Shown here in pieces: positions 4,860-24,000 of a stretch of DNA of 24,000 nucleotides. Each line of letters begins with the position of its first letter. The stretch's first letter is position 1. The translations under genes were made by a program, and so were the position numbers. The notes beneath the pieces were generated by a model. The model was not told where the DNA came from, ran no database searches, and was given only the letters and a program-made list of their open reading frames with translations. The DNA comes from Noviherbaspirillum sp. (GTDB taxonomy: Bacteria > Pseudomonadota > Gammaproteobacteria > Burkholderiales > Burkholderiaceae_D): assembly GCF_036846085.1 (NCBI RefSeq), contig NZ_DAIUCO010000018.1:12584-36583 (forward strand). The letters run 5' to 3'.

Positions 4860-6671
4860 ATGGACAACGTATCGATCAGAATCCTGTTGATTGACGATAA
4901 TCCCGGCGATGCAATCCTGATCGAACGTATGCTGGCGCAGGTAAGAACGCCGCCAATGGAAGTCAGCTGGGCAAGCAACCTGAGTTCTGGCATCGAGCTG
5001 TTGAATGCGGGCAGCGCCGACCTGGTTTTGCTGGATCTGGGCCTGCCGGAAAGCATCGGCTTGGATACCGTCAGAAATTTGTACAGAAAGGTATCGACGA
5101 TACCTGCGGTCGTGGTGATGAGCGAACTCGCGGACGAGGACATCGCCGTGCAGGCAGTGCAGTGCGGCGCGCAAGACTATCTGATCAAAGGCGAGGTGAA
5201 CAGCGCCTTGCTGATCCGGTCCATCCGGTATGCACTGGAGCGCAGCCAGGCGAAAATTGCCCTGCAACAGGCCAACGACGAGCTGGAGCATCGGGTTCGG
5301 GAACGCACGACGCAGCTGGCGAAAGTCATCGAGGAACTCCATGAGGGCATCGCCAATCGGGAGCTTGCGGAACGCCGCATCCGCTACATGGCGCATTACG
5401 ATGAGCTGACCGGCCTGCCGAATCGGGTGCTGCTGCGCGACCGGATCATGCAGGCCATCGGCCAGGCTCGCTGCTGCAACACGCGCATCGCCATCGTGTT
5501 CATCGATCTGGATAATTTCAAGCACGTCAACGATTCGCTCGGGCACCAGGTCGGCGACCGCCTGCTGCAGGCTGTCGCCGGGCGGGTGCGTCAATGCCTG
5601 CGCAATGGCGATATCGGCGCGCGTCTTGGCGGCGACGAATTCGTGTTGATTCTTCCCCTCGTCGGCGAGGAAGACGATCCCGGTGCGATCGCGCAAGGGG
5701 TGCTGGACGCGCTGGCGCAGCCGTTCTCCATCGATGGCCACATGCTGCATATGGGCGCCAGCATCGGCATCAGCACCTATCCGAACGACGGCAATGATGT
5801 GGATACGCTGATGCGCGCCGCCGATACCGCGATGTATCACGCCAAGGGAAGAGGGCGCGGCAATTTCCAGTTTTTCACGCCGGCGCTCGACCGGGCCGCC
5901 CATGAGCGCCTGGACATCGAGAACCGGCTACGCAATGCGCTCGCGAACCATGAGTTCGTGCTCCATTATCAACCCCAGGTCGATATCAAAAGCGGCGCCA
6001 TCTTCAGCGCGGAAGCATTGCTGCGCTGGCGTCAGCCCGGCAAGGAGCCGGTCTCCTGCGAAGCATTCATCGCGAGCGCCGAGGACACCGGATTGATCCT
6101 GCCGCTCGGAGACTGGGTATTGCGGCAGGCATGCAATCAGCTGAAGCTATGGCGCGCCGAGGGTCATGCCGATCTACGGATCGCAGTCAACCTGTCGCCG
6201 CTCCAGATAGGCCGGCCCGGCTTTCCGGCGACGGTTGCCCGGATTCTTCATGAGACGGGATTGCCCGCCAATGCGCTGGATCTTGAAATCACCGAAGGTG
6301 TGATGATGCAGCGTAACGAGTTCACGCTTGCGACCCTGATCAGCCTCAGCACGATGGGCGTACAGCTTTCGGTTGATGATTTCGGCACCGGGTATTCCAG
6401 CTTGTCCTATCTGCAGCGTTTTCCTGTGCATGCGCTCAAAGTCGACCGCTCGTTCGTACGCGGCATCGGTCACGATATGAACAACACGACGCTGGTTACG
6501 GCAATCATCGCGATGGCAAAAAGCCTGCGGTTGAAGGTGCTCGCCGAAGGGGTCGAAACCGACGAGCAGGCGAGCTTTCTCCTGGCGCACGGCTGTCCGG
6601 CGGCACAGGGGTACTTTTACGGTGCCGCGGTATCGCCGGCAAATTTCTCCAGGCTCATGATGCGGTCCTGA
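4860..6671 (+). CDS. Response regulator with REC, GGDEF (diguanylate cyclase) and EAL (c-di-GMP phosphodiesterase) domains
   Basis: 603 aa. REC domain: ILLIDDNPGD, LVLLDLGLPE (acceptor Asp) and DYLIKG. A coiled-coil linker follows. GGDEF domain with an intact RLGGDEF and an RNGD I-site 5 residues upstream. EAL domain with EALLRW, DDFGTGYSSLSYL, KVDRSF and EGVET. AAGGA lies 8 nt upstream of ATG 4860. Confidence 0.95.
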   Translation: MDNVSIRILLIDDNPGDAILIERMLAQVRTPPMEVSWASNLSSGIELLNAGSADLVLLDLGLPESIGLDTVRNLYRKVSTIPAVVVMSELADEDIAVQAVQCGAQDYLIKGEVNSALLIRSIRYALERSQAKIALQQANDELEHRVRERTTQLAKVIEELHEGIANRELAERRIRYMAHYDELTGLPNRVLLRDRIMQAIGQARCCNTRIAIVFIDLDNFKHVNDSLGHQVGDRLLQAVAGRVRQCLRNGDIGARLGGDEFVLILPLVGEEDDPGAIAQGVLDALAQPFSIDGHMLHMGASIGISTYPNDGNDVDTLMRAADTAMYHAKGRGRGNFQFFTPALDRAAHERLDIENRLRNALANHEFVLHYQPQVDIKSGAIFSAEALLRWRQPGKEPVSCEAFIASAEDTGLILPLGDWVLRQACNQLKLWRAEGHADLRIAVNLSPLQIGRPGFPATVARILHETGLPANALDLEITEGVMMQRNEFTLATLISLSTMGVQLSVDDFGTGYSSLSYLQRFPVHALKVDRSFVRGIGHDMNNTTLVTAIIAMAKSLRLKVLAEGVETDEQASFLLAHGCPAAQGYFYGAAVSPANFSRLMMRS

Positions 6672-9420: not shown

Positions 9421-9449
9421 TTGGTGAAATTGATAGTTTTCAATATGCT
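9421..9449 (+). promoter_or_regulatory. Candidate sigma70-type promoter for katA (TTGGTG-N17-TATGCT)
   Basis: -35-like TTGGTG at 9421-9426, a 17-nt spacer, and -10-like TATGCT at 9444-9449, about 140 nt upstream of ATG 9589. Sequence match only. Confidence 0.3.
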
Positions 9450-9588
9450 TGCCGCTAACCAACCCATCCATGCGAGACGACCCCATGCACACCGCCGCAC
9501 ATACCGCCGATTCCATGGATGCAAGCTGGCTTGCCCTATTGGCAGCCATCGCGTTGGCTTACTGATCTTTCACCTTCACGAGGCATGC

Positions 9589-11037
9589 ATGAACGAGACA
9601 ACCACATTGACGACGGCTTCCGGCATACCGGTCGACGATAACCAGAACAGTTTGACCGCCGGTCCGCGTGGTCCGGTACTGCTGCAGGATTTTCACCTGA
9701 TCGAAAAGCTGCAGCATTTCAACCGCGAGCGGATTCCGGAGCGTGTGGTACATGCTAAAGGCTCGGGCGCCTACGGCACCTTCATCGTGACACACGACAT
9801 CAGCCATTTCACCAAGGCGAAGCTCTTTGCGCAGATCGGCAAGCAGACGGAAACCTTCGTGCGTTTCTCGACCGTCGGCGGCGAGCGCGGGTCAGCCGAT
9901 ACCGAGCGCGATCCGCGTGGCTTCGCGGTGCGTTTCTATACCGAGGAAGGCAACTGGGATCTGGCCGGCAACAACACGCCGATGTTTTTCATCAAGGACC
10001 CGATCAAGTTCCCGGATTTCGTGCATACGCAGAAGCGCTGCCCGATGACCAATCTGAAATCGGCGACGATGATGTGGGACTTCTGGAGCAATGCGCCGGA
10101 GTCGCTGCACCAGGTGACGATGCTGTTTTCCGATCGCGGCACGCCGGACGGCTACCGGCATATGGACGGCTTCGGCAGCCATACCTTCAGCCTCATCAAC
10201 CATGCCGGCCAGCGCGTCTGGGTCAAGTGGCACCTGAAAACCCGCCAGGGGATCAAGAACCTGTCGGCCGCCGACGCGGTCCGCCTTGCCGGCGAGGACC
10301 CGGACTATGCGCAGCGCGACCTGTTCAATGCGATCGCCGGCGGCGATTTCCCGAAGTGGGATGTGTTCATCCAGGTGATGCGCGAAGACGAGGCAGCCGC
10401 CTGGGCGGCGAGGACAGGCTGGAATCCGTTCGACCTGACCAAGATCTGGCCGCACAAGGATTTCCCGCGCATTCCCGTCGGCACGCTGGAACTGAACCGC
10501 AACCCGGAGAACTATCACGCCGAGGTGGAGCAGGTCGCGTTCTCGCCCGCCAACATCGTTCCCGGCATGGGCTATTCGCCGGACAAGATGCTGCAGGGAC
10601 GCTTATTCGCCTATCACGACGCACAGCTCTATCGCGTGGGTACCAATCACCAGCAGCTGCCGGTCAATCGTCCTCGCTGCCCGGTCAATCACCAGCAGCG
10701 CGACGGTGCGATGGCGATCAACAATTTCGGCTCGCAACCCAACTACGCGAATGTTCACGGCAAGGGTGTGCCGTCCCGCGGATTCGGACATGGCGATGCC
10801 GGCTGGCCGCTCGTCGGCGAAGCCGGACGTTACGATCCGCGCGGCGAGGACGACGACACGACCCAGGCCGGCAACCTGTTCCGCCTGATGAGCAGCGGCG
10901 AGCAGGACCGTCTTGCTACCAACATCGCCAATGCGATGCGCGGTGTTGCCGCCGAGATCCAGCAATGCCAGCTGGCGCATTTCGATAAGGCGGACCCGGC
11001 GTATGGCGCGGCGGTGAGGACCAAGCTGGCCGCCTGA
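9589..11037 (+). CDS. katA: Monofunctional heme catalase, small-subunit type (~482 aa)
   Basis: [18 protein letters not shown] (distal His), RFSTVGGERGSADTERDPRGFAVRFYTEEGNWDLAGNNTPMFFI, and RLFAYHDAQLYRVG (proximal Tyr). The ORF track starts at TTG 9421, but ATG 9589 (MNETTT...), with GAGG 5 nt upstream, gives the canonical catalase N-terminus. Confidence 0.95.
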   Translation: MNETTTLTTASGIPVDDNQNSLTAGPRGPVLLQDFHLIEKLQHFNRERIPERVVHAKGSGAYGTFIVTHDISHFTKAKLFAQIGKQTETFVRFSTVGGERGSADTERDPRGFAVRFYTEEGNWDLAGNNTPMFFIKDPIKFPDFVHTQKRCPMTNLKSATMMWDFWSNAPESLHQVTMLFSDRGTPDGYRHMDGFGSHTFSLINHAGQRVWVKWHLKTRQGIKNLSAADAVRLAGEDPDYAQRDLFNAIAGGDFPKWDVFIQVMREDEAAAWAARTGWNPFDLTKIWPHKDFPRIPVGTLELNRNPENYHAEVEQVAFSPANIVPGMGYSPDKMLQGRLFAYHDAQLYRVGTNHQQLPVNRPRCPVNHQQRDGAMAINNFGSQPNYANVHGKGVPSRGFGHGDAGWPLVGEAGRYDPRGEDDDTTQAGNLFRLMSSGEQDRLATNIANAMRGVAAEIQQCQLAHFDKADPAYGAAVRTKLAA

Positions 11038-11335: not shown

Positions 11336-12961
11336 ATGAATACCGATCGACTCGAGCGCCCGACGCTCACCACCCGCCAGGGGCATCCCGTCAGCGACAA
11401 CCAGGCATTGCGCTCCGTCGGCGAGCGCGGCCCGGCAACGCTGGAAAACTATCAGTTCATTGAAAAGATCACCCACTTCGACCGCGAACGCATTCCCGAG
11501 CGCGTCGTCCATGCGCGCGGCACCGGCGCCCATGGTTACTTCGAACCCTACGGCAAAATCGGCAACGAGCCCGTTTCGAAATACACGCGCGCAAGGGTGC
11601 TCAATGAAGTAGGCGTGCGCACGCCGATCTTCCTTCGCTTCTCTACCGTGATCGGTTCGAAGGATTCGCCGGAGACGGCGCGCGATCCCCGCGGCTTCGC
11701 GATCAAGTTCAAGACCGTCGAAGGCAACTGGGACCTCGTCGGCAATAACCTGAAGGTGTTTTTCATCCGAGATGCGATCAAGTTTCCGGACATGATCCAC
11801 GCCTTCAAGCCCGACCCGGCGACGAACCGGCAGGAGCCCTGGCGCTTCTATGACTTCGTCTCGCAGTCGCCGGAGGCGCTGCACATGGTTACCTGGGTCA
11901 AGAGCCCATGGGGTATTCCCGCCAACTATCGGGAGATGGAAGGCTCGGGCGTAAACACCTACAAGTTCGTCAACGACCAGGGCGTTGCCCATCTCGTCAA
12001 ATTCCACTTCCAGCCGAAGCAGGGTGTGCGCAATCTCACCAGTGCGCAGGCCGCCGAGATCCAGGCGCAGGAAGTCGGTCATGCGACAAAGGATTTGTAC
12101 GAGGCGATCGAGCGCGGCGATTTCCCGGAATGGGAGTTCTGCGTGCAATTGATGACCGACGACGAGCATCCCGAACTGGACTTCGATCCGCTCGATGACA
12201 CCAAGCGCTGGCCGGAAGACAAGTTCCCGCTGCTGCCGCTCGGCCGCATCGTGCTCGACCGCAATCCCGACAATGTCTTTGCCGAGACGGAGCAGTCGGC
12301 GTTCGGTACCGGTGTGCTGGTCGACGGCATCGATTTTTCCGACGACAAGATGCTGCAGGGGCGCACGTTGTCCTACTCGGATACCCAGCGTTACCGCGTC
12401 GGTCCCAATTACCTGCAACTGCCGATCAACGCGCCGCAGGAAAAAGCCCGCGCGCACACCAACCAGCAGGGCGGCGCCATGGCCTACTACGTCGACCCCA
12501 ACGGCGGCAACCGTCACATCAACTATGAGCCCAGCCTCATGGGCGGACTGCAGGAAGCGCCCAAGCCGGAAAAGGATTATCACCAGTGGGTGGAGGGCCA
12601 TCTCGGGCGCTACCAGACCACCCGCACCGCCGACGACTACAAGCAGGCGGGCGAGCGTTACCGGACCTTCGAGGAATGGGAGCGCGAGGACCTGGTCAAC
12701 AATATCGGCAACGACCTGAAGCAATGCCCGGAGCCGATCCAGCTGCGCATGGTCTGGCATCTGTGGCACTGCGATCCGGACTACGGCACCCGCGTGGCAA
12801 AGATCGCCGGCATCGATCTGTCGCGGGCGAAGGACCTGCCGCCGCTGCCGGGCAAACCGGCGCCGCACCAGGCACGCCAGGCGACGACGTACACCAGCGG
12901 GCAGAAAGAGGAATCCGCAGGCGTGGAGACGCGTTCGGAAGAAACGAGCGGCGCCAAGTAG
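11336..12961 (+). CDS. katB: Monofunctional heme catalase, second paralog (541 aa, KatB-like) with a Pro/Lys-rich C-terminal tail
   Basis: [62 protein letters not shown] and [24 protein letters not shown] precedes ATG 11336. The katB symbol follows the P. aeruginosa katB-ankB arrangement, because an ankyrin gene follows. Confidence 0.93.
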
Positions 12962-13032
12962 CAACAGGCACTGCAACGCTACCGGAGATGCGCGAGCGGC
13001 GGATGGCCGTGCATCTCCCTCGAGGAGTGAAC

Positions 13033-13587
13033 ATGCAGGAACCTGCCAACGAAACACCATCGAACGAAACACAACCGGCGGCCGCCAGGATACCGGACGA
13101 AGAAACGATTGCATTTGCGCAGAAGGTATTTCATCTCGTCCGGAGCGGCGATGCCGTCATACTGGCCGCGCTGCTGGAACAGGGGCTGCCGCCGAATCTA
13201 TGCAACCACAAGGGCGACAGCCTGCTGATGCTGGCCAGCTACCATGGACATGTCGATGCCGCGCGGATCCTGCTGGAGTACGGGGCCGACACCGAAATCC
13301 GCAACGACCATGGACAGACACCGATCGCCGGCGCTGCCTATAAAGGCGATGTGGCGATGGTGAGACTGCTGCTGGAGCACGGCGCCGATGTGGAAGGCGC
13401 CGCCCCGGACGGCAAGACCGCGCTGATGCTGGCGGCGATGTTCAACCGCGTCGATGTGGTTGACGTGCTGGTCGCGGAAGGCGCGAACATCGAGGCGCGC
13501 GATGCGAAGGGCATGTCGGCGCTGGATGCGGCGCGGGCGATGGGCGCGGCGGATACGCCGGCGCGGCTGGTGAGGGTGGTGCATTAA
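13033..13587 (+). CDS. ankB: Ankyrin-repeat protein, AnkB-like catalase accessory candidate (184 aa)
   Basis: Three to four ankyrin repeats: GDSLLMLASYHGHVDAARILLEYGADTEIRN, HGQTPIAGAAYKGDVAMVRLLLEHGADVEGAA, DGKTALMLAAMFNRVDVVDVLVAEGANIEARD, and KGMSALDAARAMG. The ORF track begins at 12586 inside katB. ATG 13033, with GAGGAG 5 nt upstream, is the credible start. Confidence 0.85.
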   Translation: MQEPANETPSNETQPAAARIPDEETIAFAQKVFHLVRSGDAVILAALLEQGLPPNLCNHKGDSLLMLASYHGHVDAARILLEYGADTEIRNDHGQTPIAGAAYKGDVAMVRLLLEHGADVEGAAPDGKTALMLAAMFNRVDVVDVLVAEGANIEARDAKGMSALDAARAMGAADTPARLVRVVH

Positions 13588-17445: not shown

Positions 17446-17832
17446 TCAGATTCGCTTGACGAAAATCCAGTAGGAGCCGCCGCTCAGGGCTTTTTTCATG
17501 TGCACCTTCACCTTGGTCGGTTTCATCTCGTGATCGAACAGGTACTCGAACATGGTATTGAGATTGTCCGCTTTCACGCCGGCGTCGAATACGCCCTTGA
17601 AGCGGGTGGTTGCCGTGCAGGGCGCCACGTCACGGAAAAAATTCTTGCCGATCACCGATGCCGGATCGCGTCCGGTGATTGCACCTTCCGCAGCGTTGTA
17701 CTTTAGGACGGTGCCGTTCCTGTCGAGTTCAATCGCGCCGAAGGCAAGCTTGTCGATCTCTTTTCCCGACATTCGGTTCATGACGTTCTCGATATCGGTT
17801 TTGCCGAAACCGATCAGCTCAAGTTCTTTCAT
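17446..17832 (-). CDS. pyp: Photoactive yellow protein (PAS-fold blue-light photoreceptor, p-coumaric acid chromophore)
   Basis: 128 aa. [50 protein letters not shown] and [39 protein letters not shown] align gap-free with H. halophila PYP as I remember it. Equivalents of Tyr42, Glu46, Thr50, Arg52 and Cys69 are all present (Y45, E49, T53, R55, C72). GAGGA lies 7 nt upstream of the ATG. Confidence 0.95.
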
Positions 17833-17857
17833 ACTGGATCCTCAAGGATTGAATGTT

Positions 17858-17867
17858 TATGGATAGG
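17858..17867. repeat. Left copy of a 10-nt inverted repeat (TATGGATAGG) in the pyp 5' leader
   Basis: Exact reverse complement of 18123-18132. It lies 25 nt upstream of the pyp start codon. The repeat is seen directly; its function is unknown. Confidence 0.5.
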
Positions 17868-18122
17868 CTCTGAATGAAATATTTCCCTGCGGTAACATCA
17901 CCCATTCTGGCAGCTTGATTTCCTTGAGTCAAGTTTGTATTAGACAAAATGAGCTTTTTGTACCTCGGTTGTCCATAATTCCCAACCAGTCATTCACGAT
18001 TAAAATGCTTATCTTCATTGAGGTTTATCGAGAAGAAGCTGTTTGAAACGTTATTTTCGATATCATCGGCAAAAATAGTGTATTTCTGATTTGGCCTATA
18101 CAAAGGCGCTTTGCATGCGGTT

Positions 18123-18132
18123 CCTATCCATA
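18123..18132. repeat. Right copy of the 10-nt inverted repeat (CCTATCCATA) abutting the TAXI gene ribosome-binding site
   Basis: Exact reverse complement of 17858-17867. AGGGGGAG and ATG 18140/18146 follow immediately. Confidence 0.5.
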
Positions 18133-18139
18133 GGGGGAG

Positions 18140-19108
18140 ATGTTCATGATCTGTTTTTCGCGTTTCAAAATTCATGCAGCCTGGCTTCTTGCCGGCCTGA
18201 TGCTCTGCATGCCAGCCGCAGCAAGCGACCCGATGCCAGTCGTGATGGGAACCGCCACGCCCGGAGGCGGCTTTCCTGTTTTCGGCGATGCGGTCCTGCG
18301 CACAGTTGCCAGGACCGATCCCACGCTGCAGATCGACGCGAGGAACACCAGGGGCAGCACCGAAAACATTCCCCTGCTCGAAGCCGGCAAGCTCGATATC
18401 GCGCTGGTGCAGGGTGAAGCCGCCTATGAGGCGCTGCAGGGCGTGGGGCGCCCGCCGTCAAATGTGAAAATCATCGCGGCCATGTACTCCACGCCCGGTA
18501 TGTTCGTCGTGCGCGGCGACAGTCCCTATCGCAGCATCGACGACCTGCGCGGCAAGCCGGTGGCCTTCGGCGCCAAGGGCTCCGGCCTCGTGATCCTCGC
18601 CCGCTATGTGCTGAATGGCCTCGGACTGGACATGGACAAGGATTTCCAGGCGGTGTACCTGGAGCGTGCGGGCGACGGCCCGGCGATGGTGGCGGATGGT
18701 CGCGTGGCGGCGCTGTGGGGTGGCGGCAGCAGCTGGCCGGGATTCGTCGCCGTCACCGATGCACCATCGGGCGGGCGCTTCATCGCGCCGACCGAAGCGG
18801 AGATCGCAAAAATCCGTGAGCGCCATGGTTTCCTGAAGCAACTCACCCTGCCAGCCAACAGTTTCAGAGGCCAGACGGTGCCGCTGTCGTCGGTCGGCTC
18901 ATGGAGCTTCATCATGGCGCGCCAGAACCTGCCGGACGAGACCGCATACCGACTGACGCGGGCACTGCATAAGGGCGAAGACATCATTGCCGGACTGCTG
19001 CCGCAGGCGAAGGAAACCAGGGCCGCGAATACTGCATCGGCGGCGCCGGAGGAACGCATGCTGCATCCCGGGACGCTCAAGTACCTGCGCGAAATCAAGT
19101 TGAAATAA
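18140..19108 (+). CDS. TAXI family TRAP-transporter solute receptor (orphan; no membrane subunit adjacent)
   Basis: 322 aa with signal peptide ...LLAGLMLCMPAAA. MGTATPGGGFPVFGDAV...NTRGSTENIPLLEAGKLDIALVQGEAAYEA...DDLRGKPVAFGAKGSGL...LHPGTLKYLREI follows the TAXI family pattern. The start may be ATG 18146, which has better spacing from the GGGGGAG Shine-Dalgarno. Confidence 0.85.
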   Translation: MFMICFSRFKIHAAWLLAGLMLCMPAAASDPMPVVMGTATPGGGFPVFGDAVLRTVARTDPTLQIDARNTRGSTENIPLLEAGKLDIALVQGEAAYEALQGVGRPPSNVKIIAAMYSTPGMFVVRGDSPYRSIDDLRGKPVAFGAKGSGLVILARYVLNGLGLDMDKDFQAVYLERAGDGPAMVADGRVAALWGGGSSWPGFVAVTDAPSGGRFIAPTEAEIAKIRERHGFLKQLTLPANSFRGQTVPLSSVGSWSFIMARQNLPDETAYRLTRALHKGEDIIAGLLPQAKETRAANTASAAPEERMLHPGTLKYLREIKLK

Positions 19109-19195
19109 GCACGGAAAAATCGGAAGCCGTAATATATCCGGGCGTCCAACGCACCACCCCGCCCGAACCATAACCACAATCTGGAGTTGAGAGAC

Positions 19196-19699
19196 ATGGC
19201 GAAACTGAACGTGAACGGAACATTGCGTGAATTTGAGGCGGAGGGTGATACGCCGCTGCTTTGGGTGCTGCGAGAGCAGCTCGGCCTGACGGGAACGAAG
19301 TACGGCTGCGGCGTAGCGATGTGCGGCGCCTGCACCGTGCATATCGACGGCGAACCGACCCGCAGCTGCGTGCGTCCGGTCTCGTCGGTCAATGCGGAGC
19401 AGAAGATCGTGACGATCGAGGGCCTGTCCAAGGACGGCTCGCATCCGGTGCAGAAGGCCTGGGTGGCGCTCGATGTGCCGCAATGCGGGTTTTGCCAGAG
19501 CGGGATGATCATGGCGGCCGCCGCGCTGCTCAAGCAGAAACCGAATCCCACCGACGCCGACATCAACGAATCCATCACCAATATCTGCCGCTGCGGCACC
19601 TACAACCGGGTGCGCGCCGCGATCAAGGTCGTTGCCAAGGGCGGGGATGCGCGCAGCGCCGGCCTGTCGATCAAGCATGTTGACGGGAGCACGACATGA
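19196..19699 (+). CDS. [2Fe-2S]-binding small subunit of an IorAB / aldehyde oxidase-type molybdenum hydroxylase
   Basis: The ORF track starts at TTG 19187. ATG 19196 (MAKLNVNG...) has GGAG 9 nt upstream. Two cluster motifs are present: [22 protein letters not shown] and [10 protein letters not shown]...CRCGTY. The stop overlaps the next start (ATGA at 19696-19699). Confidence 0.9.
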
Positions 19700-21897
19700 G
19701 CCGCGCCGTCTCCGATACCGCCGTGGCGAGCCCGTCGCGGCGCCGCTTTCTCGGTACCTCGGCTGCCGCGTTCGGCGGACTGATGGTCGGCTTTCACGTA
19801 CCGTTGACCGCCGCCGCGCAGAATGCGGCGGCCGGCGCGGTGCCGGAGGTTAATGCCTGGGTAGTGGTGAAGCCGGACGACACCGTGGTCATCCGCATTG
19901 CCCGCTCCGAGATGGGACAGGGGTCGCTGACCGGGCTGGCCCAGCTCGTCGCGGAAGAGCTGGACTGCGATTGGGCGAAAGTCACCACCGAATATCCGAC
20001 GCCCGGACAGAACCTTGCGCGTAACCGTGCCTGGGGCAATTTTTCGACCGGCGGCAGCCGCGGCATACGCGAGTCGCATGACTACGTGCGCAAGGGCGGC
20101 GCGGCGGCCCGCATGATGCTCGTGCAGGCGGCCGCGGACGAATGGAAGGTGCCGGCCGCCGAATGCCGCGCCGCCAACAGTGTCATCACCCATGGCCCGT
20201 CGAACCGCACCACTACCTATGGCAAGGTTGCCGCTGCCGCTGCGAAGCTGACGCCCCCGACGGATGTGGTGTTGAAAGACCCGAAAGAGTGGAAGGTCGC
20301 CGGCAAGCGCCTGGCACGCCTCGATACGGTGGAAAAGACCACCGGTGCGCAGATCTACGGCATGGACCTCACAATGCCCGGGATGCTGAACGCGGCGATC
20401 AAGGATTGCCCGGTATTCGGCGGCAGGGTAAAAAGCTTCAAGGCCGCCGAAATCCAAGGCCGCCCCGGCGTAAAGAAAGTGGTGCAGGTCGGCGACAGCG
20501 CCGTCGCCGTGGTGGCGGATACATGGTGGCACGCCAAGACGGCGCTGGACGCACTGACGATCGAATGGGACAACGGGCCGAACGCCAAGGTATCGAGCGC
20601 CGGCATCGCCGAGACGCTGAAGGCGGGACTTGACGCGAACGACGCGGCGGTCGGCAACCAGAACGGCGACGTGCGCGCCGCGCTGAATTCCGCGGCGCGC
20701 AAGATCGAAGCGGTTTATTCCTACCCATACCAGAACCACGCGACGATGGAGACCATGAACGCCACGGCGAAATGGACACCGGAGCGCTGCGAAGTCTGGA
20801 CGCCGACGCAGAACGGCGAAGCGGCATTGGCCGCCGCGGCCGAGGCGGCGGAACTGCCGCCGTCGAAATGCGAGGTGTACAAGATTCACCTCGGCGGCGG
20901 CTTTGGCCGGCGCGGCGCGGTACACGACTGGGTGCGGCAGGCGGTGGCGATCGCGAAGGAAATGCCCGGCACGCCCATCAAGCTGATCTGGTCGCGCGAA
21001 GAGGACATGCTGCATGGCCGCTACCATCCGGTCACGCAATGCAAGCTGACGGCCGGTCTCGATGCGCAGGGCAATATCACCGGACTCCATATGCGCATTT
21101 CCGGTCAGTCCATCCTCGCAGGGGTGTTCCCCCAGAACATCAAGGACGGCAAGGATCCGGTCGTGTTCCAGGGCCTGAATCCGCCCGGCCCGGAAGCATC
21201 GATCGGTTACAGTTTCCCGAACCTCCTGATCGACCACGCGATGCGCAATCCGCCGGTGCCGCCCGGCTTCTGGCGCGGCGTGAACCTGAACCAGAACACC
21301 ATCTATCTCGAATGCTTTCTCGACGAGATCGCTCATGCGACGAAGCAGGATCCGCTGGCCCTGCGCCGCAAGCTGATGGCCAATCATCCGAAGCATCTCG
21401 CGGTACTGAACGCGGCCGCCGATCGCGCCGGCTGGGACAAGCCGCCGCCGAAGGGCGTGTTCCGCGGACTGGCGCAGACGATGGGCTTCGGCAGCTATGT
21501 GGCGGCGGTGGCGGAAGTATCGGTCAGCGACGAGGGTGGCCTGAAAATCCATCGCATCGTGGCGGCCACCGACCCGGGCCATGCATTGAACCCGCAGCAG
21601 ATCGAAGCCCAGGTGGAAGGGTCGTTCGTGTACGGCCTGTCGGCGGCGCTGTATGGCGAATGCACGGTCAAGGACGGCCGCATGGAGCAGGACAACTTCA
21701 CCAGCTACCAGGTGATGCGGATGGATGAAATGCCGCCGGTGGAAACCGTGCTCGTTCCTTCGGGCGGATTCTGGGGCGGGGTGGGCGAGCCGACCATCGC
21801 GGTGGCGGCGCCGGCGGTGCTCAATGCCATCTTCGCCGCCACCGGCAAGCGCATCCGCGACTTGCCGTTAAAAAACCATAGCCTGAAGAAAGCGTAG
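19696..21897 (+). CDS. Molybdopterin-binding large subunit of an IorAB / xanthine dehydrogenase-family oxidoreductase, TAT-exported
   Basis: 733 aa. Twin-arginine signal [22 protein letters not shown]. Its length and sequence blocks ([47 protein letters not shown]) fit the CoxL/IorB family. GGGAG lies 6 nt upstream of the ATG. Confidence 0.9.
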
Positions 21898-21952
21898 GGC
21901 ATGAGCATGCGGAGGCGCGAATGCGTCTCCGCGATACCGCCGGACACAAGCC

Positions 21953-22417
21953 ATGTGGTTATTCGTCACCGCGCTTTTACTCGCATCAAGCGGCACCGCA
22001 TGGGCTGCCGGCGAGACGGCCTTGCCTTACCGCATCGTCGGCGATGCGATACCCGATTCCCTGACCGGCGCGCCCGGTGACGCGGCAAGGGGCCGTGCGA
22101 TCGTTGCGAACCGGCAGGTCGGCCTGTGCCTGTTGTGCCATGCCGGGCCGCTGCCGGAAGAACGCTTCCAAGGCAATCTCGCACCCGACCTCGCCGGGAC
22201 GGGCGCGCGCTGGAGCGAAGGGCAATTGCGCCTGCGCATCGTCGATGCCGGCCGCGTCAATCCGGCGACCATCATGCCGCCGTATTACCGTACCGATGGC
22301 TTGGTCCGGGTCAATCCCGCGGTGCAGGGAAAGCCCATACTGGATGCAAGGCAGATCGAAGATGTCGTTGCCTACCTGCGCACATTGCGCGAGCCGCCAC
22401 AACAGAAAGCTGAGTGA
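21953..22417 (+). CDS. soxX: SoxX-like monoheme c-type cytochrome
   Basis: 154 aa. Signal peptide MWLFVTALLLASSGTAWA. A single CLLCH heme motif. APDLAGTG...LRLRIVDAGRVNPATIMPPYY...LDARQIEDVVAYLRTL follows the SoxX pattern. The stop overlaps the next gene's start (TGATG). Confidence 0.8.
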   Translation: MWLFVTALLLASSGTAWAAGETALPYRIVGDAIPDSLTGAPGDAARGRAIVANRQVGLCLLCHAGPLPEERFQGNLAPDLAGTGARWSEGQLRLRIVDAGRVNPATIMPPYYRTDGLVRVNPAVQGKPILDARQIEDVVAYLRTLREPPQQKAE

Positions 22418-22899
22418 TGTCCGATCCACATGAATTTTCTTCCGGAACCGACCGCAAGCGCCGCAGGCTGCTGGCGGCAGGGGCCGGCCTCGGGGCCTGG
22501 CTGATCGTCCGGCCCGCAAGCGCGACGCCGGATGAGATGGCCGCCGCCATCAGGTCCTATACCGGCGGTGCGAAAGTGAATGCCGGCAAGGTGAAGCTCG
22601 ACGTGGCGGCGCTGGTCGATAACGGCAACGCCGTACCGGTCACGGTTGCCGTCGACAGTCCCATGACCGCCGCCGACCATGTCGCCGCCATCGCGATCTT
22701 CAACGAGCGCAATCCGCAGACCGATGTCGCCCGCTTTACCCTCGGGCCGCGCGCCGGCAAGGCGAGCGTATCCACCCGCATGCGGCTGGCGACGTCGCAG
22801 AAGCTGACGGCGGTGGCGAAACTGAGCGACGGCAGTTACTGGTCCCACACCATCGACGTGGTGGTGACCCTGGCTGCCTGCATCGAAGGCGAGACCTGA
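22417..22899 (+). CDS. SoxY-related sulfur-carrier-like protein with a non-canonical C-terminal arm (...VVVTLAACIEGET)
   Basis: ORF track 22414 (GTG); the ATG is at 22417. TAT-type signal DRKRRRLLAAGAGLGAWLIVRPASA. The body (KVKLDVAALVDNGNAVPVTVAVDSPMTAADHVAAIAIFNERNP...AVAKLSDGSYWSHTIDVVVT) follows SoxY. The canonical C-terminal GGCGG is replaced by AACIEGET. I recall an NCBI family name 'SoxY-related AACIE arm protein' but cannot verify it here. Confidence 0.85.
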   Translation: MSDPHEFSSGTDRKRRRLLAAGAGLGAWLIVRPASATPDEMAAAIRSYTGGAKVNAGKVKLDVAALVDNGNAVPVTVAVDSPMTAADHVAAIAIFNERNPQTDVARFTLGPRAGKASVSTRMRLATSQKLTAVAKLSDGSYWSHTIDVVVTLAACIEGET

Positions 22900-22900
22900 C

Positions 22901-23224
22901 ATGGCACGCACACTCATCAAAGTACCGGCCACCGCGAAGCGTGGCGAGGTGATTGAAATCCGCACGCTCATCGCCCATCCGATGGAAACCGGCTACCGCC
23001 CCGGCGCCGACGGCCAGGTCGTGCCGCGCGACATCCTGCGGCGCTTCACCTGCCGTTACAACGGCGAGGTGGTGTTCAGCGCCGAATTGTTCCCGGCCAT
23101 CGCTGCCAATCCCAGCATCAACTTCCATACCGTCGCCACCGACAGCGGCACGCTGGCGTTCACCTGGGAGGGCGACAAGGGATTCACGCAGACGGCGTCG
23201 GTGGCGATCACCGTCACCGGCTAG
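22901..23224 (+). CDS. soxZ: SoxZ-like thiosulfate-oxidation carrier complex subunit
   Basis: 107 aa. KVPATAKRGEVIEIRTLIAHPMETGYR...RFTCRYNGEVVFSAELFPAIAANP is the SoxZ pattern. It starts 1 nt after the SoxY-like stop. Confidence 0.9.
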   Translation: MARTLIKVPATAKRGEVIEIRTLIAHPMETGYRPGADGQVVPRDILRRFTCRYNGEVVFSAELFPAIAANPSINFHTVATDSGTLAFTWEGDKGFTQTASVAITVTG

Positions 23225-23229
23225 GCGCG

Positions 23230-24000
23230 ATGCGGATGGCCGCGATGCTGATGGTCCTTGCCGCTTGCGGCCCGTCGGCACATGCGCAGCCGACGGGCGA
23301 TAGCCGCCTGCCCGGTTCCGCGTTCATGGGCACATCGACGCAGAAGATGCAGCGCGACGACAGCCTCAATCCCGGCATGCTGTGGGTGCAGGAGGGTGAG
23401 GCGCTGTGGAGCCGTAGTGCGGGGAAGAGCGATCGTTCCTGCGCAAGCTGTCATGGCGATGCAAAGACATCGATGCGCGGCGTGGCGGCGCGCTATCCCG
23501 CCTTCGATGCGAAGAGCAAGCGCCTGCTGAATCTCGGCCAGCGCATCAACCAGTGCCGGCAGGAGCGCCAGCAGGCGCCGGCCTTCGCGGCGGAAAGCGA
23601 AGCCTTGCTCGGGCTGGAGAGTTATGTCGCCCTGCAGTCGCGCGGCATGCCGGTGACGCCACCGGGCGATGCGGCGCTGCAGGCGTTTTATGCGCGGGGC
23701 GAGCAGCGCTGGCGACAGCGCATGGGGCAGCTCAATCTCTCCTGCGCGCAATGCCATGATGACTATTGGGGCAAGCGACTTGGGGGCAGCATCATCCCGC
23801 AGGGCCATGCCAGCGGATATCCAATCTATCGTCTCGAATGGCAGGGGATGGGATCGTTGCAGCGGCGCTTGCGGAATTGCATGACAGGCGTGAGGGCGGA
23901 GCCGTTCGCGCTCGGGTCGCAGGAGCTGGTGGAACTGGAGTTGTACCTGGCGAAGAGGGCGAAGGGGATGGCGATGGAGGCGCCGGGGGTGAGGCCTTGA
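23230..24000 (+). CDS. soxA: SoxA-like diheme c-type cytochrome
   Basis: 256 aa with signal peptide MRMAAMLMVLAACGPSAHA. Two heme motifs, CASCHG and CAQCHD. The conserved LQRRLRNCMTGVRAEP block contains the active-site Cys. The stop codon occupies the last three bases of the window. Confidence 0.9.
   Translation: MRMAAMLMVLAACGPSAHAQPTGDSRLPGSAFMGTSTQKMQRDDSLNPGMLWVQEGEALWSRSAGKSDRSCASCHGDAKTSMRGVAARYPAFDAKSKRLLNLGQRINQCRQERQQAPAFAAESEALLGLESYVALQSRGMPVTPPGDAALQAFYARGEQRWRQRMGQLNLSCAQCHDDYWGKRLGGSIIPQGHASGYPIYRLEWQGMGSLQRRLRNCMTGVRAEPFALGSQELVELELYLAKRAKGMAMEAPGVRP

What the first reader, a model, noticed from the sequence alone, without database searches (positions are those of the whole stretch)
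22417..22899. SoxY-like carrier whose swinging arm is ...VVVTLAACIEGET instead of the canonical ...GGCGG
Seen: the protein has a TAT signal and a SoxY-like body and is followed by soxZ. Its C-terminus, however, is TLAACIEGET. The single arm cysteine is flanked by Ala-Ala and Ile-Glu and sits 6 residues from the C-terminus. No alternative frame near 22870-22899 encodes GGCGG; the neighbouring frames hit stops. Established: in the Sox pathway, sulfur intermediates are carried on the Cys of the flexible Gly-rich C-terminal GGCGG arm of SoxY. SoxXA, SoxB and SoxCD all act on that arm. Inference: a stiffer, charged and longer arm is unlikely to be interchangeable with the canonical one. This SoxXYZA-like set therefore probably handles a different adduct or uses different partner enzymes. 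I recall that NCBI has a computational family name for AACIE-arm SoxY relatives, but I know of no experimental characterisation.
Basis: partly seen in the sequence, partly recalled or inferred. Interest (0 to 1): 0.7.

Follow-up and report, generated by a model that had tools for sequence, protein, structure and literature searches.

The report
AACIE-arm SoxY beside a molybdenum enzyme
This gene encodes a real, conserved variant of the sulfur-carrier protein SoxY that belongs to an already named but untested family, and it is almost always encoded beside a molybdenum enzyme rather than the usual sulfur-oxidation enzymes.

Summary
ORF 22417-22899(+) encodes a 160-aa SoxY-fold protein with a twin-arginine leader and one cysteine (Cys155) in the tail ...VVVTLAACIEGET. 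It is flanked by soxX, soxZ and soxA.

It is not new as a family. It passes NCBIfam TIGR04487, "SoxY-related AACIE arm protein" (218 bits, cut-off 172), and fails the true-SoxY model. The tail is conserved in 120/120 close homologues and 92/118 distant cluster representatives, so it is not an error.

In 95 of 96 informative loci from Beta- and Alphaproteobacteria and metagenomes, a [2Fe-2S] subunit and a xanthine-oxidase-family molybdenum subunit lie immediately upstream. SoxB and SoxC are absent from all 166 loci. Flavocytochrome c sulfide dehydrogenase is present in about 40%.

The same cluster was noted in Starkeya novella in 2013, where it was barely expressed and its function was left open.

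Two observations complicate a simple carrier-substrate model. Sinorhizobium carries near-identical Mo enzymes with no carrier. A few contigs have the Mo enzyme plus SoxY*Z but no SoxXA.

"Stiffer arm" is not supported: AlphaFold leaves the tail unstructured.

Verdict: a new member of a known, uncharacterised family. Interest is moderate.

The parts
22417..22899 (+). SoxY-related AACIE-arm carrier protein (SoxY*), 160 aa, with a twin-arginine leader and the tail ...TLAACIEGET
   Evidence: TIGR04487 217.9 bits (cut-off 172) and PF13501 SoxY 103 bits. Fold matches PDB SoxY. Tail conserved in homologues.
22879..22881 (+). Codon of Cys155, the only cysteine and the presumed carrier site
   Evidence: Aligns with the carrier Cys of Paracoccus SoxY (...VTIGGC). 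Invariant in alignment A1, as are A153 and E157.
22901..23224 (+). SoxZ partner subunit, 107 aa
   Evidence: TIGR04490 81.5 bits (cut-off 76) and PF08770. Lies directly downstream of SoxY* in 143 of 144 testable loci.
21953..22417 (+). SoxX monohaem cytochrome c (CLLCH). Its stop overlaps the SoxY* start by one base.
   Evidence: TIGR04485 76.4 bits (cut-off 61). Lies upstream of SoxY* in 137 of 138 testable loci.
23230..24000 (+). SoxA dihaem cytochrome c, 256 aa. It is complete and its stop codon is the last codon of the window.
   Evidence: TIGR04484 237.7 bits (cut-off 110). Full-length alignment to Rhodovulum (1H31) and Paracoccus (2C1D) SoxA, with both CxxCH motifs and both Cys ligands (INQC, RLRNC) conserved.
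19696..21897 (+). Molybdopterin-binding large subunit of a xanthine-oxidase-family enzyme, 733 aa, with a twin-arginine leader ([15 protein letters not shown]) and a GVGEP catalytic-Glu motif
   Evidence: PF02738 and PF20256. Best solved relative is 8GY3_C, the large subunit of membrane-bound aldehyde dehydrogenase (252 bits, full length). Present upstream of SoxY* in 95 of 96 testable loci at 51-99% identity.
19187..19699 (+). [2Fe-2S] small subunit of the Mo enzyme. The likely start is the ATG at 19196. Its stop overlaps the Mo-subunit start.
   Evidence: PF01799 and PF00111. NCBIfam hits to the XdhC/PaoA/gamma-subunit class, all below cut-off. Syntenic in all loci that carry the Mo subunit and have enough sequence.
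18140..19108 (+). TAXI-family TRAP solute-binding protein, 78 nt upstream. It is a neighbour only, and membership of the module is doubtful.
   Evidence: TIGR02122 229 bits. Found upstream only in the closest relatives L002-L004, not in the other loci.

Best explanation
The gene encodes a genuine member of the "SoxY-related AACIE arm" paralogue family. It is a periplasmic, Tat-exported SoxY-fold protein that pairs with the SoxZ encoded next to it. It carries a single reactive cysteine on an unstructured C-terminal tail, at the same position as the carrier cysteine of canonical SoxY.

It is the carrier of a conserved operon-like module: [2Fe-2S] subunit, xanthine-oxidase-family Mo subunit, SoxX, SoxY*, SoxZ, SoxA, with or without a small cytochrome c plus flavocytochrome-c sulfide dehydrogenase. 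This module is distinct from the thiosulfate-oxidising Sox system because it has no SoxB or SoxCD.

The most likely mechanism is as follows.
- The cognate SoxXA oxidatively couples a sulfur nucleophile to Cys155. The nucleophile is probably sulfide or sulfane sulfur, which the co-encoded sulfide dehydrogenase would supply, and possibly thiosulfate.
- The loaded arm is then serviced by the Mo enzyme in place of SoxB/SoxCD.
- The Mo enzyme either oxidises the bound sulfane to a labile oxidised adduct that leaves as sulfite, or takes the sulfur.
- Electrons leave through the [2Fe-2S] clusters and the haems to soluble c-type cytochromes.

Shown here: family membership, fold, position and conservation of the Cys tail, the gene module and its conservation, local absence of SoxB/SoxCD, and intact haem and Cys-ligand motifs in SoxA.

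Inferred: that SoxXA loads Cys155, what is loaded, and that the arm enters the Mo enzyme.
For: - Family membership: TIGR04487 is above its cut-off and TIGR04488 is below it.
- Fold and Cys position: SoxY fold and homologous Cys.
- Selection on the tail: A153, C155 and E157 are invariant in A1. The motif is present in 120/120 close homologues and 92/118 distant representatives.
- Operon-like packing: the Fer2/Mo and SoxX/SoxY* junctions overlap, and 1-5 nt gaps separate SoxY*, SoxZ and SoxA.
- The Mo enzyme is upstream in 70/71 Burkholderiales genomes, 5/5 alphaproteobacterial loci (Neorhizobium, Methylobacterium, Roseomonas, Bradyrhizobium and one metagenomic contig) and 20/20 metagenome loci retrieved with a divergent query.
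- SoxB and SoxC are found in 0/166 loci (1.9 Mb), with positive controls in the GGCGG loci L086, L087 and L089.
- Minimal clusters Fer2-Mo-SoxY*-SoxZ without SoxXA (L121, L108, L100) tie the carrier to the Mo enzyme rather than to SoxXA.
- The FCSD flavoprotein is present in 33/77 loci with enough flank.
- SoxA appears catalytically intact.
- Starkeya novella has the same gene set (Snov_1975-1982), and it is not induced by thiosulfate (PMC3797975).
Against: - Orthologues of the Mo enzyme (68-70% identical) occur in Sinorhizobium and Rhizobium plasmids with only a cytochrome c2-like gene and no SoxXY*ZA within the 8 kb flanks examined in two of them. They nest inside the linked clade. They differ at only 2 of 214 highly conserved columns.
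- The Mo enzyme therefore probably has a free, diffusible substrate and does not need the carrier.
- No xanthine-oxidase-family enzyme is known to act on a protein-bound sulfur atom.
- Without SoxB, a thiosulfate adduct would have no known route off the carrier.
- SoxX, SoxZ and SoxA are indistinguishable from canonical ones by the NCBIfam models, so canonical loading chemistry cannot be excluded.
- The second cluster in Starkeya was barely expressed under all conditions tested.
- No whole-genome check for soxB/soxCD elsewhere was possible.
Confidence: 0.5

Rival explanations
1. Indirect metabolic coupling. The Mo enzyme oxidises a free small molecule, as it presumably does in the carrier-free Sinorhizobium clusters. 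SoxXA and SoxY*Z, with or without sulfide dehydrogenase, handle a sulfur-containing product or by-product of that reaction, or supply its substrate. The arm never enters the Mo enzyme.
For: Carrier-free orthologues have an essentially unchanged set of conserved residues. The dependence is one-sided: SoxY* almost never occurs without the Mo enzyme (95/96), but the Mo enzyme does occur without SoxY*. The closest solved relative is an aldehyde dehydrogenase that acts on free substrate and passes electrons to a cytochrome c subunit.
Against: No candidate substrate or product is identifiable from the neighbourhood. Beyond the module, only unrelated genes recur. Without SoxB or another releasing enzyme, anything SoxXA puts on the carrier has no evident exit. 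Minimal clusters keep SoxY*Z next to the Mo enzyme while dropping SoxXA, which is odd if SoxXA chemistry is the purpose of the carrier.
Confidence: 0.2
2. Accessory or repair role. SoxY*Z carries a persulfide, made by SoxXA and/or the sulfide dehydrogenase. It delivers this persulfide to the periplasmic Mo enzyme to restore the labile terminal sulfido ligand that xanthine-oxidase-family cofactors need.
For: It fits the one-sided dependence: the enzyme can exist alone, but the carrier almost never exists without the enzyme. It also fits the frequent presence of a sulfane-generating sulfide dehydrogenase and the low constitutive expression in Starkeya. From established knowledge, xanthine-oxidase-family enzymes lose activity when the Mo=S ligand is lost, and the cytoplasmic sulfuration machinery cannot reach an exported enzyme.
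Against: There is no precedent for periplasmic cofactor re-sulfuration. Whether this subclass of enzyme carries a sulfido ligand was not tested. A six-gene haem-dependent apparatus seems large for a repair task. There is no direct evidence.
Confidence: 0.12
3. Redundant isoform. SoxY*Z is loaded with thiosulfate by SoxXA and is processed in trans by a canonical SoxB/SoxCD encoded elsewhere. The odd arm only tunes affinity.
For: SoxX, SoxZ and SoxA pass the canonical equivalog cut-offs. The SoxA active-site motifs are intact. The Cys is at the homologous position. Starkeya and Bradyrhizobium species that carry such second clusters also have a full sox cluster.
Against: Four of the five arm residues differ, and the differences are conserved family-wide. 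SoxB and SoxC are never linked (0/166), whereas the Mo enzyme nearly always is. The Starkeya second cluster is not induced by thiosulfate. Deleting B. japonicum soxY2 did not affect thiosulfate oxidation, while deleting soxY1 abolished it (PMC5748708 citing Masuda 2010). I could not verify that soxY2 has this arm.
Confidence: 0.13
4. SoxX and SoxA merely serve as the c-type cytochrome electron acceptors of the Mo enzyme, replacing the trihaem subunit of related aldehyde dehydrogenases. On this view SoxY*Z is a relic.
For: The closest solved relative uses a cytochrome c subunit. SoxX plus SoxA contribute three haems.
Against: The SoxY* tail is under strong purifying selection. Clusters exist with SoxY*Z but without SoxXA. 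Separate cytochrome c2-like genes accompany several clusters.
Confidence: 0.04
5. The unusual C-terminus is a sequencing, assembly or frameshift artefact of a canonical soxY.
For: None found.
Against: The identical protein was found on an independent contig assembled from a public sequencing run. 96%-identical copies are found in two other assemblies. The motif is conserved in hundreds of species. No alternative frame encodes GGCGG.
Confidence: 0.01

Closest known systems
NCBIfam TIGR04487 (SoxY_para_1), "SoxY-related AACIE arm protein"
   Same: The protein scores 217.9 bits against a cut-off of 172 over the whole model and has the eponymous A-A-C-I-E tail. Near-identical database proteins already carry this name.
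   Different: Nothing differs. This protein is an ordinary member. The family is defined by computation only, and I found no experimental work on it.
Canonical SoxY of the Sox thiosulfate-oxidising system (Paracoccus pantotrophus SoxYZ, PDB 2OX5/2OXG; TIGR04488)
   Same: It shares the Ig-like fold (TM 0.84-0.85), the Tat leader and a SoxZ partner encoded next door. The carrier Cys sits at the same position after the last strand, and cognate SoxX and SoxA are present.
   Different: The arm is T-L-A-A-C-I-E-G-E-T rather than T-I-G-G-C-G-G. Both glycines before the Cys become alanines, a hydrophobic and then an acidic residue follow it, and three extra residues are present. It scores below the TIGR04488 cut-off. 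No soxB or soxCD lies nearby, and a xanthine-oxidase-family Mo enzyme is present instead.
Second sox cluster of Starkeya novella (soxX2Y2Z2A2F2 plus xanthine-oxidase-family Mo enzyme, Snov_1975-1982; Kappler et al. 2013, PMC3797975)
   Same: It has the same gene set: Mo enzyme, flavocytochrome c, SoxXA and SoxYZ, with no SoxB or SoxCD. It matches the alphaproteobacterial order I found in Methylobacterium, Neorhizobium and Bradyrhizobium.
   Different: In this window the flavocytochrome genes would lie after soxA, as in relative L002, rather than between the Mo enzyme and soxX. I could not retrieve the Starkeya SoxY2 sequence to confirm its arm.
Membrane-bound aldehyde dehydrogenase of acetic acid bacteria (PDB 8GY3) and the IorAB-type two-subunit Mo hydroxylases
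   Same: The neighbouring Mo subunit aligns over its full length (252 bits). It has a Tat leader on the large subunit, a separate [2Fe-2S] subunit, no FAD subunit and c-type cytochromes as presumed acceptors.
   Different: There is no trihaem cytochrome subunit. Instead it is linked to SoxX, SoxA and a Cys-carrier protein. No NCBIfam equivalog model reaches its cut-off. The substrate is unknown.
Quinoprotein-dehydrogenase-associated SoxYZ-like carrier (TIGR04557)
   Same: It is another SoxY/SoxZ-derived protein recruited next to a periplasmic dehydrogenase outside the Sox pathway. It is a precedent for SoxYZ being reused with non-Sox enzymes.
   Different: That family is a fused Y-Z protein. 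The scores here are 52.8 (SoxY*) and 38.8 (SoxZ) against a cut-off of 140. The partner enzyme class is also different.

Membership tests
TIGR04487 SoxY-related AACIE arm protein | Whole-protein HMM score at or above the curated cut-off (172 bits) | tested here: met
   217.9 bits, E 4.5e-65, covering model positions 2-146 of 146.
TIGR04487 SoxY-related AACIE arm protein | C-terminal A-A-C-I-E motif in place of GGCGG | tested here: met
   ...VVVTLAACIEGET. The same motif class is found in 120/120 close homologues.
Canonical SoxY (TIGR04488, thiosulfate oxidation carrier protein) | HMM score at or above the curated cut-off (125 bits) | tested here: not met
   93.2 bits.
Canonical SoxY (TIGR04488, thiosulfate oxidation carrier protein) | Gly-rich GGCGG swinging arm at the C-terminus | tested here: not met
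   The tail is LAACIEGET, and no frame encodes GGCGG.
Canonical SoxY (TIGR04488, thiosulfate oxidation carrier protein) | SoxY Ig-like fold with the carrier Cys just after the last beta-strand, and SoxZ encoded adjacently | tested here: met
   PF13501 103 bits. Foldseek to 2OX5/2OXG gives TM 0.84-0.85. The Cys aligns. SoxZ is at 22901-23224.
Canonical SoxY (TIGR04488, thiosulfate oxidation carrier protein) | Cys is thiosulfonated by SoxXA and the adduct is processed by SoxB and SoxCD | not testable with these tools
   This needs biochemistry (intact-mass spectrometry with purified components).
Sox multienzyme system (SoxXA, SoxYZ, SoxB, with or without SoxCD) | SoxXA cytochrome complex with a Cys-ligated active-site haem | tested here: met
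   SoxX 76.4 (cut-off 61) and SoxA 237.7 (cut-off 110). Both CxxCH motifs and both Cys ligands align with 1H31 and 2C1D.
Sox multienzyme system (SoxXA, SoxYZ, SoxB, with or without SoxCD) | SoxB thiosulfohydrolase encoded with the carrier | tested here: not met
   There is no SoxB hit in the window or in 166 related loci. Positive controls L086, L087 and L089 were detected. Presence elsewhere in the genome was not testable.
Sox multienzyme system (SoxXA, SoxYZ, SoxB, with or without SoxCD) | SoxCD sulfane dehydrogenase encoded with the carrier (complete systems only) | tested here: not met
   There is no SoxC hit in the window or in 166 related loci.
Xanthine-oxidase-family Mo hydroxylase, two-subunit IorAB/AldH type (the neighbouring genes) | Molybdopterin-binding domains, a separate double [2Fe-2S] subunit and the conserved catalytic Glu | tested here: met
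   PF02738, PF20256, PF01799 and PF00111. Full-length alignment to 8GY3_C includes GVGEP aligned to GLGEP. Assigning that Glu as the catalytic base rests on my knowledge of the family.
Xanthine-oxidase-family Mo hydroxylase, two-subunit IorAB/AldH type (the neighbouring genes) | Membership of a characterised equivalog (xanthine, aldehyde, CO, nicotinate or 4-hydroxybenzoyl-CoA enzymes) | tested here: not met
   All NCBIfam hits are far below their cut-offs, for example XdhA 182 against 780 and PaoC 130 against 1180.
TIGR04557 quinoprotein dehydrogenase-associated SoxYZ-like carrier | Fused SoxY-SoxZ protein scoring at or above 140 bits | tested here: not met
   52.8 bits (SoxY*) and 38.8 bits (SoxZ). 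The two are separate genes.

The most novel reading that the evidence does not exclude
The AACIE-arm SoxY*Z is the dedicated protein partner of a periplasmic xanthine-oxidase-family molybdenum enzyme. The Mo centre might oxidise carrier-bound sulfane sulfur, giving a SoxB/SoxCD-independent and oxygen-independent route from sulfide to sulfite. Alternatively the carrier might re-sulfurate the enzyme's Mo=S ligand in the periplasm. Either would be a type of chemistry or maturation not described for this enzyme family, in a module present in at least about 600 sequenced species.
Probability: 0.3. Interest if true: 0.75.

Novelty: new member of a known kind. Interest (0 to 1): 0.5.

Why it matters
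Sox carrier proteins are the textbook example of a swinging-arm substrate carrier in the periplasm. This family keeps the carrier, its SoxZ partner and the loading cytochromes. It swaps the arm sequence, and it swaps the processing enzymes for a molybdenum hydroxylase.

The module is widespread in soil, freshwater and marine Alpha- and Betaproteobacteria: the genome scan stopped at its 600-match limit, and 595 of those matches encode relatives. Sulfur-cycle gene surveys count its soxX/Y/Z/A genes as Sox genes, or, in one published SoxY phylogeny, discard them for lacking GGC. Its real function therefore affects how sox gene counts are read in metagenomes.

If the arm does feed the Mo enzyme, that would add a new reaction type to the xanthine-oxidase family. 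If instead the protein is only a redundant isoform, the finding is ordinary.

Tried and rejected
- Literature: searches for "AACIE", SoxY paralogue terms and co-mention of isoquinoline oxidoreductase with Sox genes found no study of the family. Masuda 2010 (PMC2849208), which has the soxY2 knockout, is not held. I could therefore not confirm that the B. japonicum or Starkeya SoxY2 has this arm.
- Other conserved neighbours: clustering all flanking ORFs of 80 genomes found only FccB, its cytochrome and housekeeping or unrelated genes (Bug-family binding protein, NlpC/P60, pyruvate dehydrogenase E2/E3, chemoreceptor, OmpW). These give no clue to the substrate.
- Monophyly of the AAC-arm class: a body-only NJ tree gives a pure clade of 13 of the 14 GGC representatives. 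Bootstrap resamples do not reproduce it reliably (best-split F1 0.58-0.85), so I make no claim.
- Promoter and terminator scan of 17700-24000: counts were at or below the shuffled expectation, so it says nothing about operon boundaries.
- "Stiffer arm": it could only be addressed through AlphaFold confidence, which shows an unstructured tail. This is weak evidence either way.
- Frameshift or assembly error: rejected.
- Obligate carrier substrate: the idea that the Mo enzyme acts only on the carrier was weakened by the carrier-free Sinorhizobium orthologues.
Full report
**Observation.** The ORF at 22417-22899 on the + strand encodes 160 residues ending in IDVVVTLAACIEGET.
- The N-terminus (RKRRRLLAAGAGLGAWLIVRPASA) has the twin-arginine pattern. 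The two arginines are nearly invariant in an alignment of 24 homologues.
- Cys155 (22879-22881) is the only cysteine, and five residues follow it.
- soxX ends one base into the start codon. soxZ begins one base after the stop. A complete soxA follows and ends with the window.
- No frame on either strand around the 3' end encodes GGCGG.

**Family.** NCBIfam places the protein in TIGR04487, "SoxY-related AACIE arm protein", at 217.9 bits against a cut-off of 172. The true-SoxY model TIGR04488 reaches only 93.2 against 125.
- Pfam SoxY matches.
- phmmer against the PDB aligns the protein with Paracoccus SoxY, placing VVVTLAAC on VKVTIGGC.
- An AlphaFold model (mean pLDDT 73.7) superposes on solved SoxY chains with TM 0.84-0.85.
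- The last strand ends at T151, and C155-T160 have pLDDT below 50.
- Database proteins that are 71-76% identical already carry the NCBI family name. The window most resembles Noviherbaspirillum (96% identity to a MAG of that genus).

**Conservation of the arm.** All 120 best homologues end in [LI]-A-[AS]-C-[ILVM]-E plus one to four mostly acidic or small residues.
- A profile search of 1.84 billion cluster representatives found 218 proteins at E <= 1e-30.
- Among the 118 full-length tails in the best 150, 92 have x-A-C-x-[E/D], 14 have GGC and 12 have near variants.
- The motif is therefore a selected, family-wide feature and not an error.
- The identical protein is also on an independent contig assembled from a public sequencing run.

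**Gene context in the window.**
- Immediately upstream lie a [2Fe-2S] subunit (19187-19699) and a 733-residue molybdopterin subunit with its own twin-arginine leader (19696-21897).
- The Mo subunit's best solved relative is the large subunit of the membrane-bound aldehyde dehydrogenase 8GY3 (252 bits, full length, GVGEP aligned to GLGEP).
- No NCBIfam equivalog reaches its cut-off.
- In a 96%-identical relative, the genes after soxA are a small cytochrome c and the flavoprotein of flavocytochrome c sulfide dehydrogenase.

**Gene context elsewhere.** I mapped these proteins onto three sets of loci.
- 80 genome loci, all Burkholderiales, taken from a scan that stopped at its 600-match limit, with 595 matches encoding relatives.
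- Five alphaproteobacterial loci: Neorhizobium, Methylobacterium, Roseomonas, Bradyrhizobium sp. LHD-71 and one metagenomic contig.
- 80 metagenome loci retrieved with a deliberately divergent A-C-x-D query.

The Mo subunit lies within 2.6 kb upstream of SoxY* in 95 of 96 loci with enough sequence. The only exception is L064. The other counts are:

| Feature | Loci with it / testable loci |
|---|---|
| Mo subunit upstream of SoxY* | 95 / 96 |
| SoxX upstream of SoxY* | 137 / 138 |
| SoxZ downstream of SoxY* | 143 / 144 |
| SoxA downstream of SoxY* | 116 / 121 |
| FCSD flavoprotein in the locus | 33 / 77 |
| SoxB or SoxC (Paracoccus queries) | 0 / 166 (1.9 Mb) |

The SoxB and SoxC queries did detect both genes next to GGCGG-type soxY in Paracoccus, Indioceanicola and Methylosinus. 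Clustering of all other flanking ORFs found nothing else conserved.

**Two complications.**
- First, a tblastn of the Mo subunit against plasmids found 35 records at 60-80% identity, most of them Sinorhizobium and Rhizobium. In the two whose annotation I examined, the cluster is a cytochrome c2-like gene, the [2Fe-2S] subunit and the Mo subunit, with no SoxXY*ZA within the 8 kb flanks.
- These enzymes nest within the SoxY*-linked clade in an NJ tree. They differ at only 2 of 214 columns that are at least 97% conserved among 94 linked sequences, which is no more than linked controls differ.
- The Mo enzyme therefore does not need the carrier, and it probably has a free substrate.
- Second, three metagenome contigs (L121, L108, L100) have Mo enzyme, SoxY* and SoxZ with no SoxX between them and no SoxA after them.
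- The dependence is thus one-sided. The carrier follows the Mo enzyme, but the enzyme does not follow the carrier.

**Literature.**
- The same gene set was described in Starkeya novella as a second sox cluster, soxX2Y2Z2A2F2 plus a xanthine-oxidase-family Mo enzyme (Snov_1975-1982). It lacks SoxB and SoxCD, its SoxAX and SoxYZ proteins were not detected, and its transcripts were very low on thiosulfate, methanol or glucose. The authors left its role open (PMC3797975).
- In Bradyrhizobium, soxY1 but not soxY2 is needed for thiosulfate oxidation (PMC5748708 citing Masuda 2010). I could not confirm the arm of soxY2, although a Bradyrhizobium strain does carry the module.
- A 2024 SoxY phylogeny removed sequences lacking "GGC" as poor quality, so this family was excluded by design (PMC11237559).
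- A 2026 survey counts about 1,000-1,300 soxA/X/Y/Z paralogues outside sox clusters without analysing them (PMC13500833).
- I found no biochemical or genetic study of the family.

**Interpretation.** What is shown:
- a conserved Cys-bearing tail on a SoxY fold;
- an intact SoxZ, SoxX and SoxA (SoxA keeps both CxxCH motifs and both cysteine ligands);
- tight, operon-like linkage to a periplasmic Mo hydroxylase;
- consistent local absence of SoxB and SoxCD.

What is inferred: that SoxXA loads Cys155, what it loads, and that the Mo enzyme is the arm's partner.

I consider direct servicing of the arm by the Mo enzyme the single most likely mechanism. It could take the form of oxidation of bound sulfane or of sulfur transfer. 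I give this reading about even odds overall, because the carrier-free orthologues fit an indirect or accessory relationship at least as well. The rivals are indirect metabolic coupling, periplasmic re-sulfuration of the Mo cofactor, a redundant thiosulfate carrier working with SoxB in trans, and SoxXA acting only as cytochromes.

**Verdict.** The protein itself is an ordinary member of a family that NCBI already names, and its gene cluster was noticed in 2013. What this analysis adds is threefold: how strict and widespread the link to the Mo enzyme is, the complete absence of SoxB and SoxCD nearby, and the one-sided dependence. Novelty: a new member of a known but uncharacterised kind. Interest: moderate.

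Noticed in passing
L172 7046-10166 and L173 7044-10166 (Sinorhizobium plasmids): These loci carry carrier-free orthologues of the Mo enzyme: a cytochrome c2-like gene, a [2Fe-2S] subunit and a Mo subunit at 68-70% identity to the window, with no Sox genes. They nest within the SoxY*-linked clade and differ at only 2 of 214 highly conserved columns.
   Followed up: yes
L121 5192-8676; L108 6-1218; L100 2-869 (metagenome contigs): These are minimal clusters in which the Mo enzyme is followed directly by SoxY* and SoxZ, with no SoxX or SoxA anywhere on the contig.
   Followed up: partly
L174 7908-10349 (S. meliloti pSymA): This is a four-gene cluster of a SoxY-like protein, SoxZ, a cytochrome c and an FCSD flavoprotein. 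The SoxY-like protein ends ...VAVATNGCL, a third kind of arm, yet it is annotated as canonical SoxY.
   Followed up: partly
L113, L128, L169 (metagenome contigs): A second copy of the Mo subunit (about 50% identical to the window's) lies just upstream of the [2Fe-2S] gene, so two Mo subunits flank one iron-sulfur subunit.
   Followed up: no
L084 7734-9894 (Neorhizobium galegae VafX2 plasmid): The Mo subunit matches in two adjacent tblastn pieces and has no CDS in the plasmid gene table. It may be a frameshifted pseudogene in this strain.
   Followed up: no
window 9421-11037, 11336-12961, about 12961-13587: Two catalase-like genes lie in tandem on the + strand, followed by an ankyrin-repeat ORF. 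From memory, this resembles the katB-ankB arrangement of Pseudomonas.
   Followed up: no
window 4860-6671: This ORF encodes a receiver-GGDEF-EAL protein (cyclic-di-GMP turnover) and is unrelated to the Sox-like module.
   Followed up: no
window 18140-19108: An orphan TAXI-type TRAP solute-binding protein lies 78 nt upstream of the module. It is conserved there only in the closest Noviherbaspirillum relatives, and no transporter membrane subunit was seen nearby.
   Followed up: partly
PMC11237559 (methods): A published SoxY phylogeny removed all sequences lacking a "GGC" motif as poor quality. That filter excludes the whole AACIE-arm family from its picture of SoxY diversity.
   Followed up: yes
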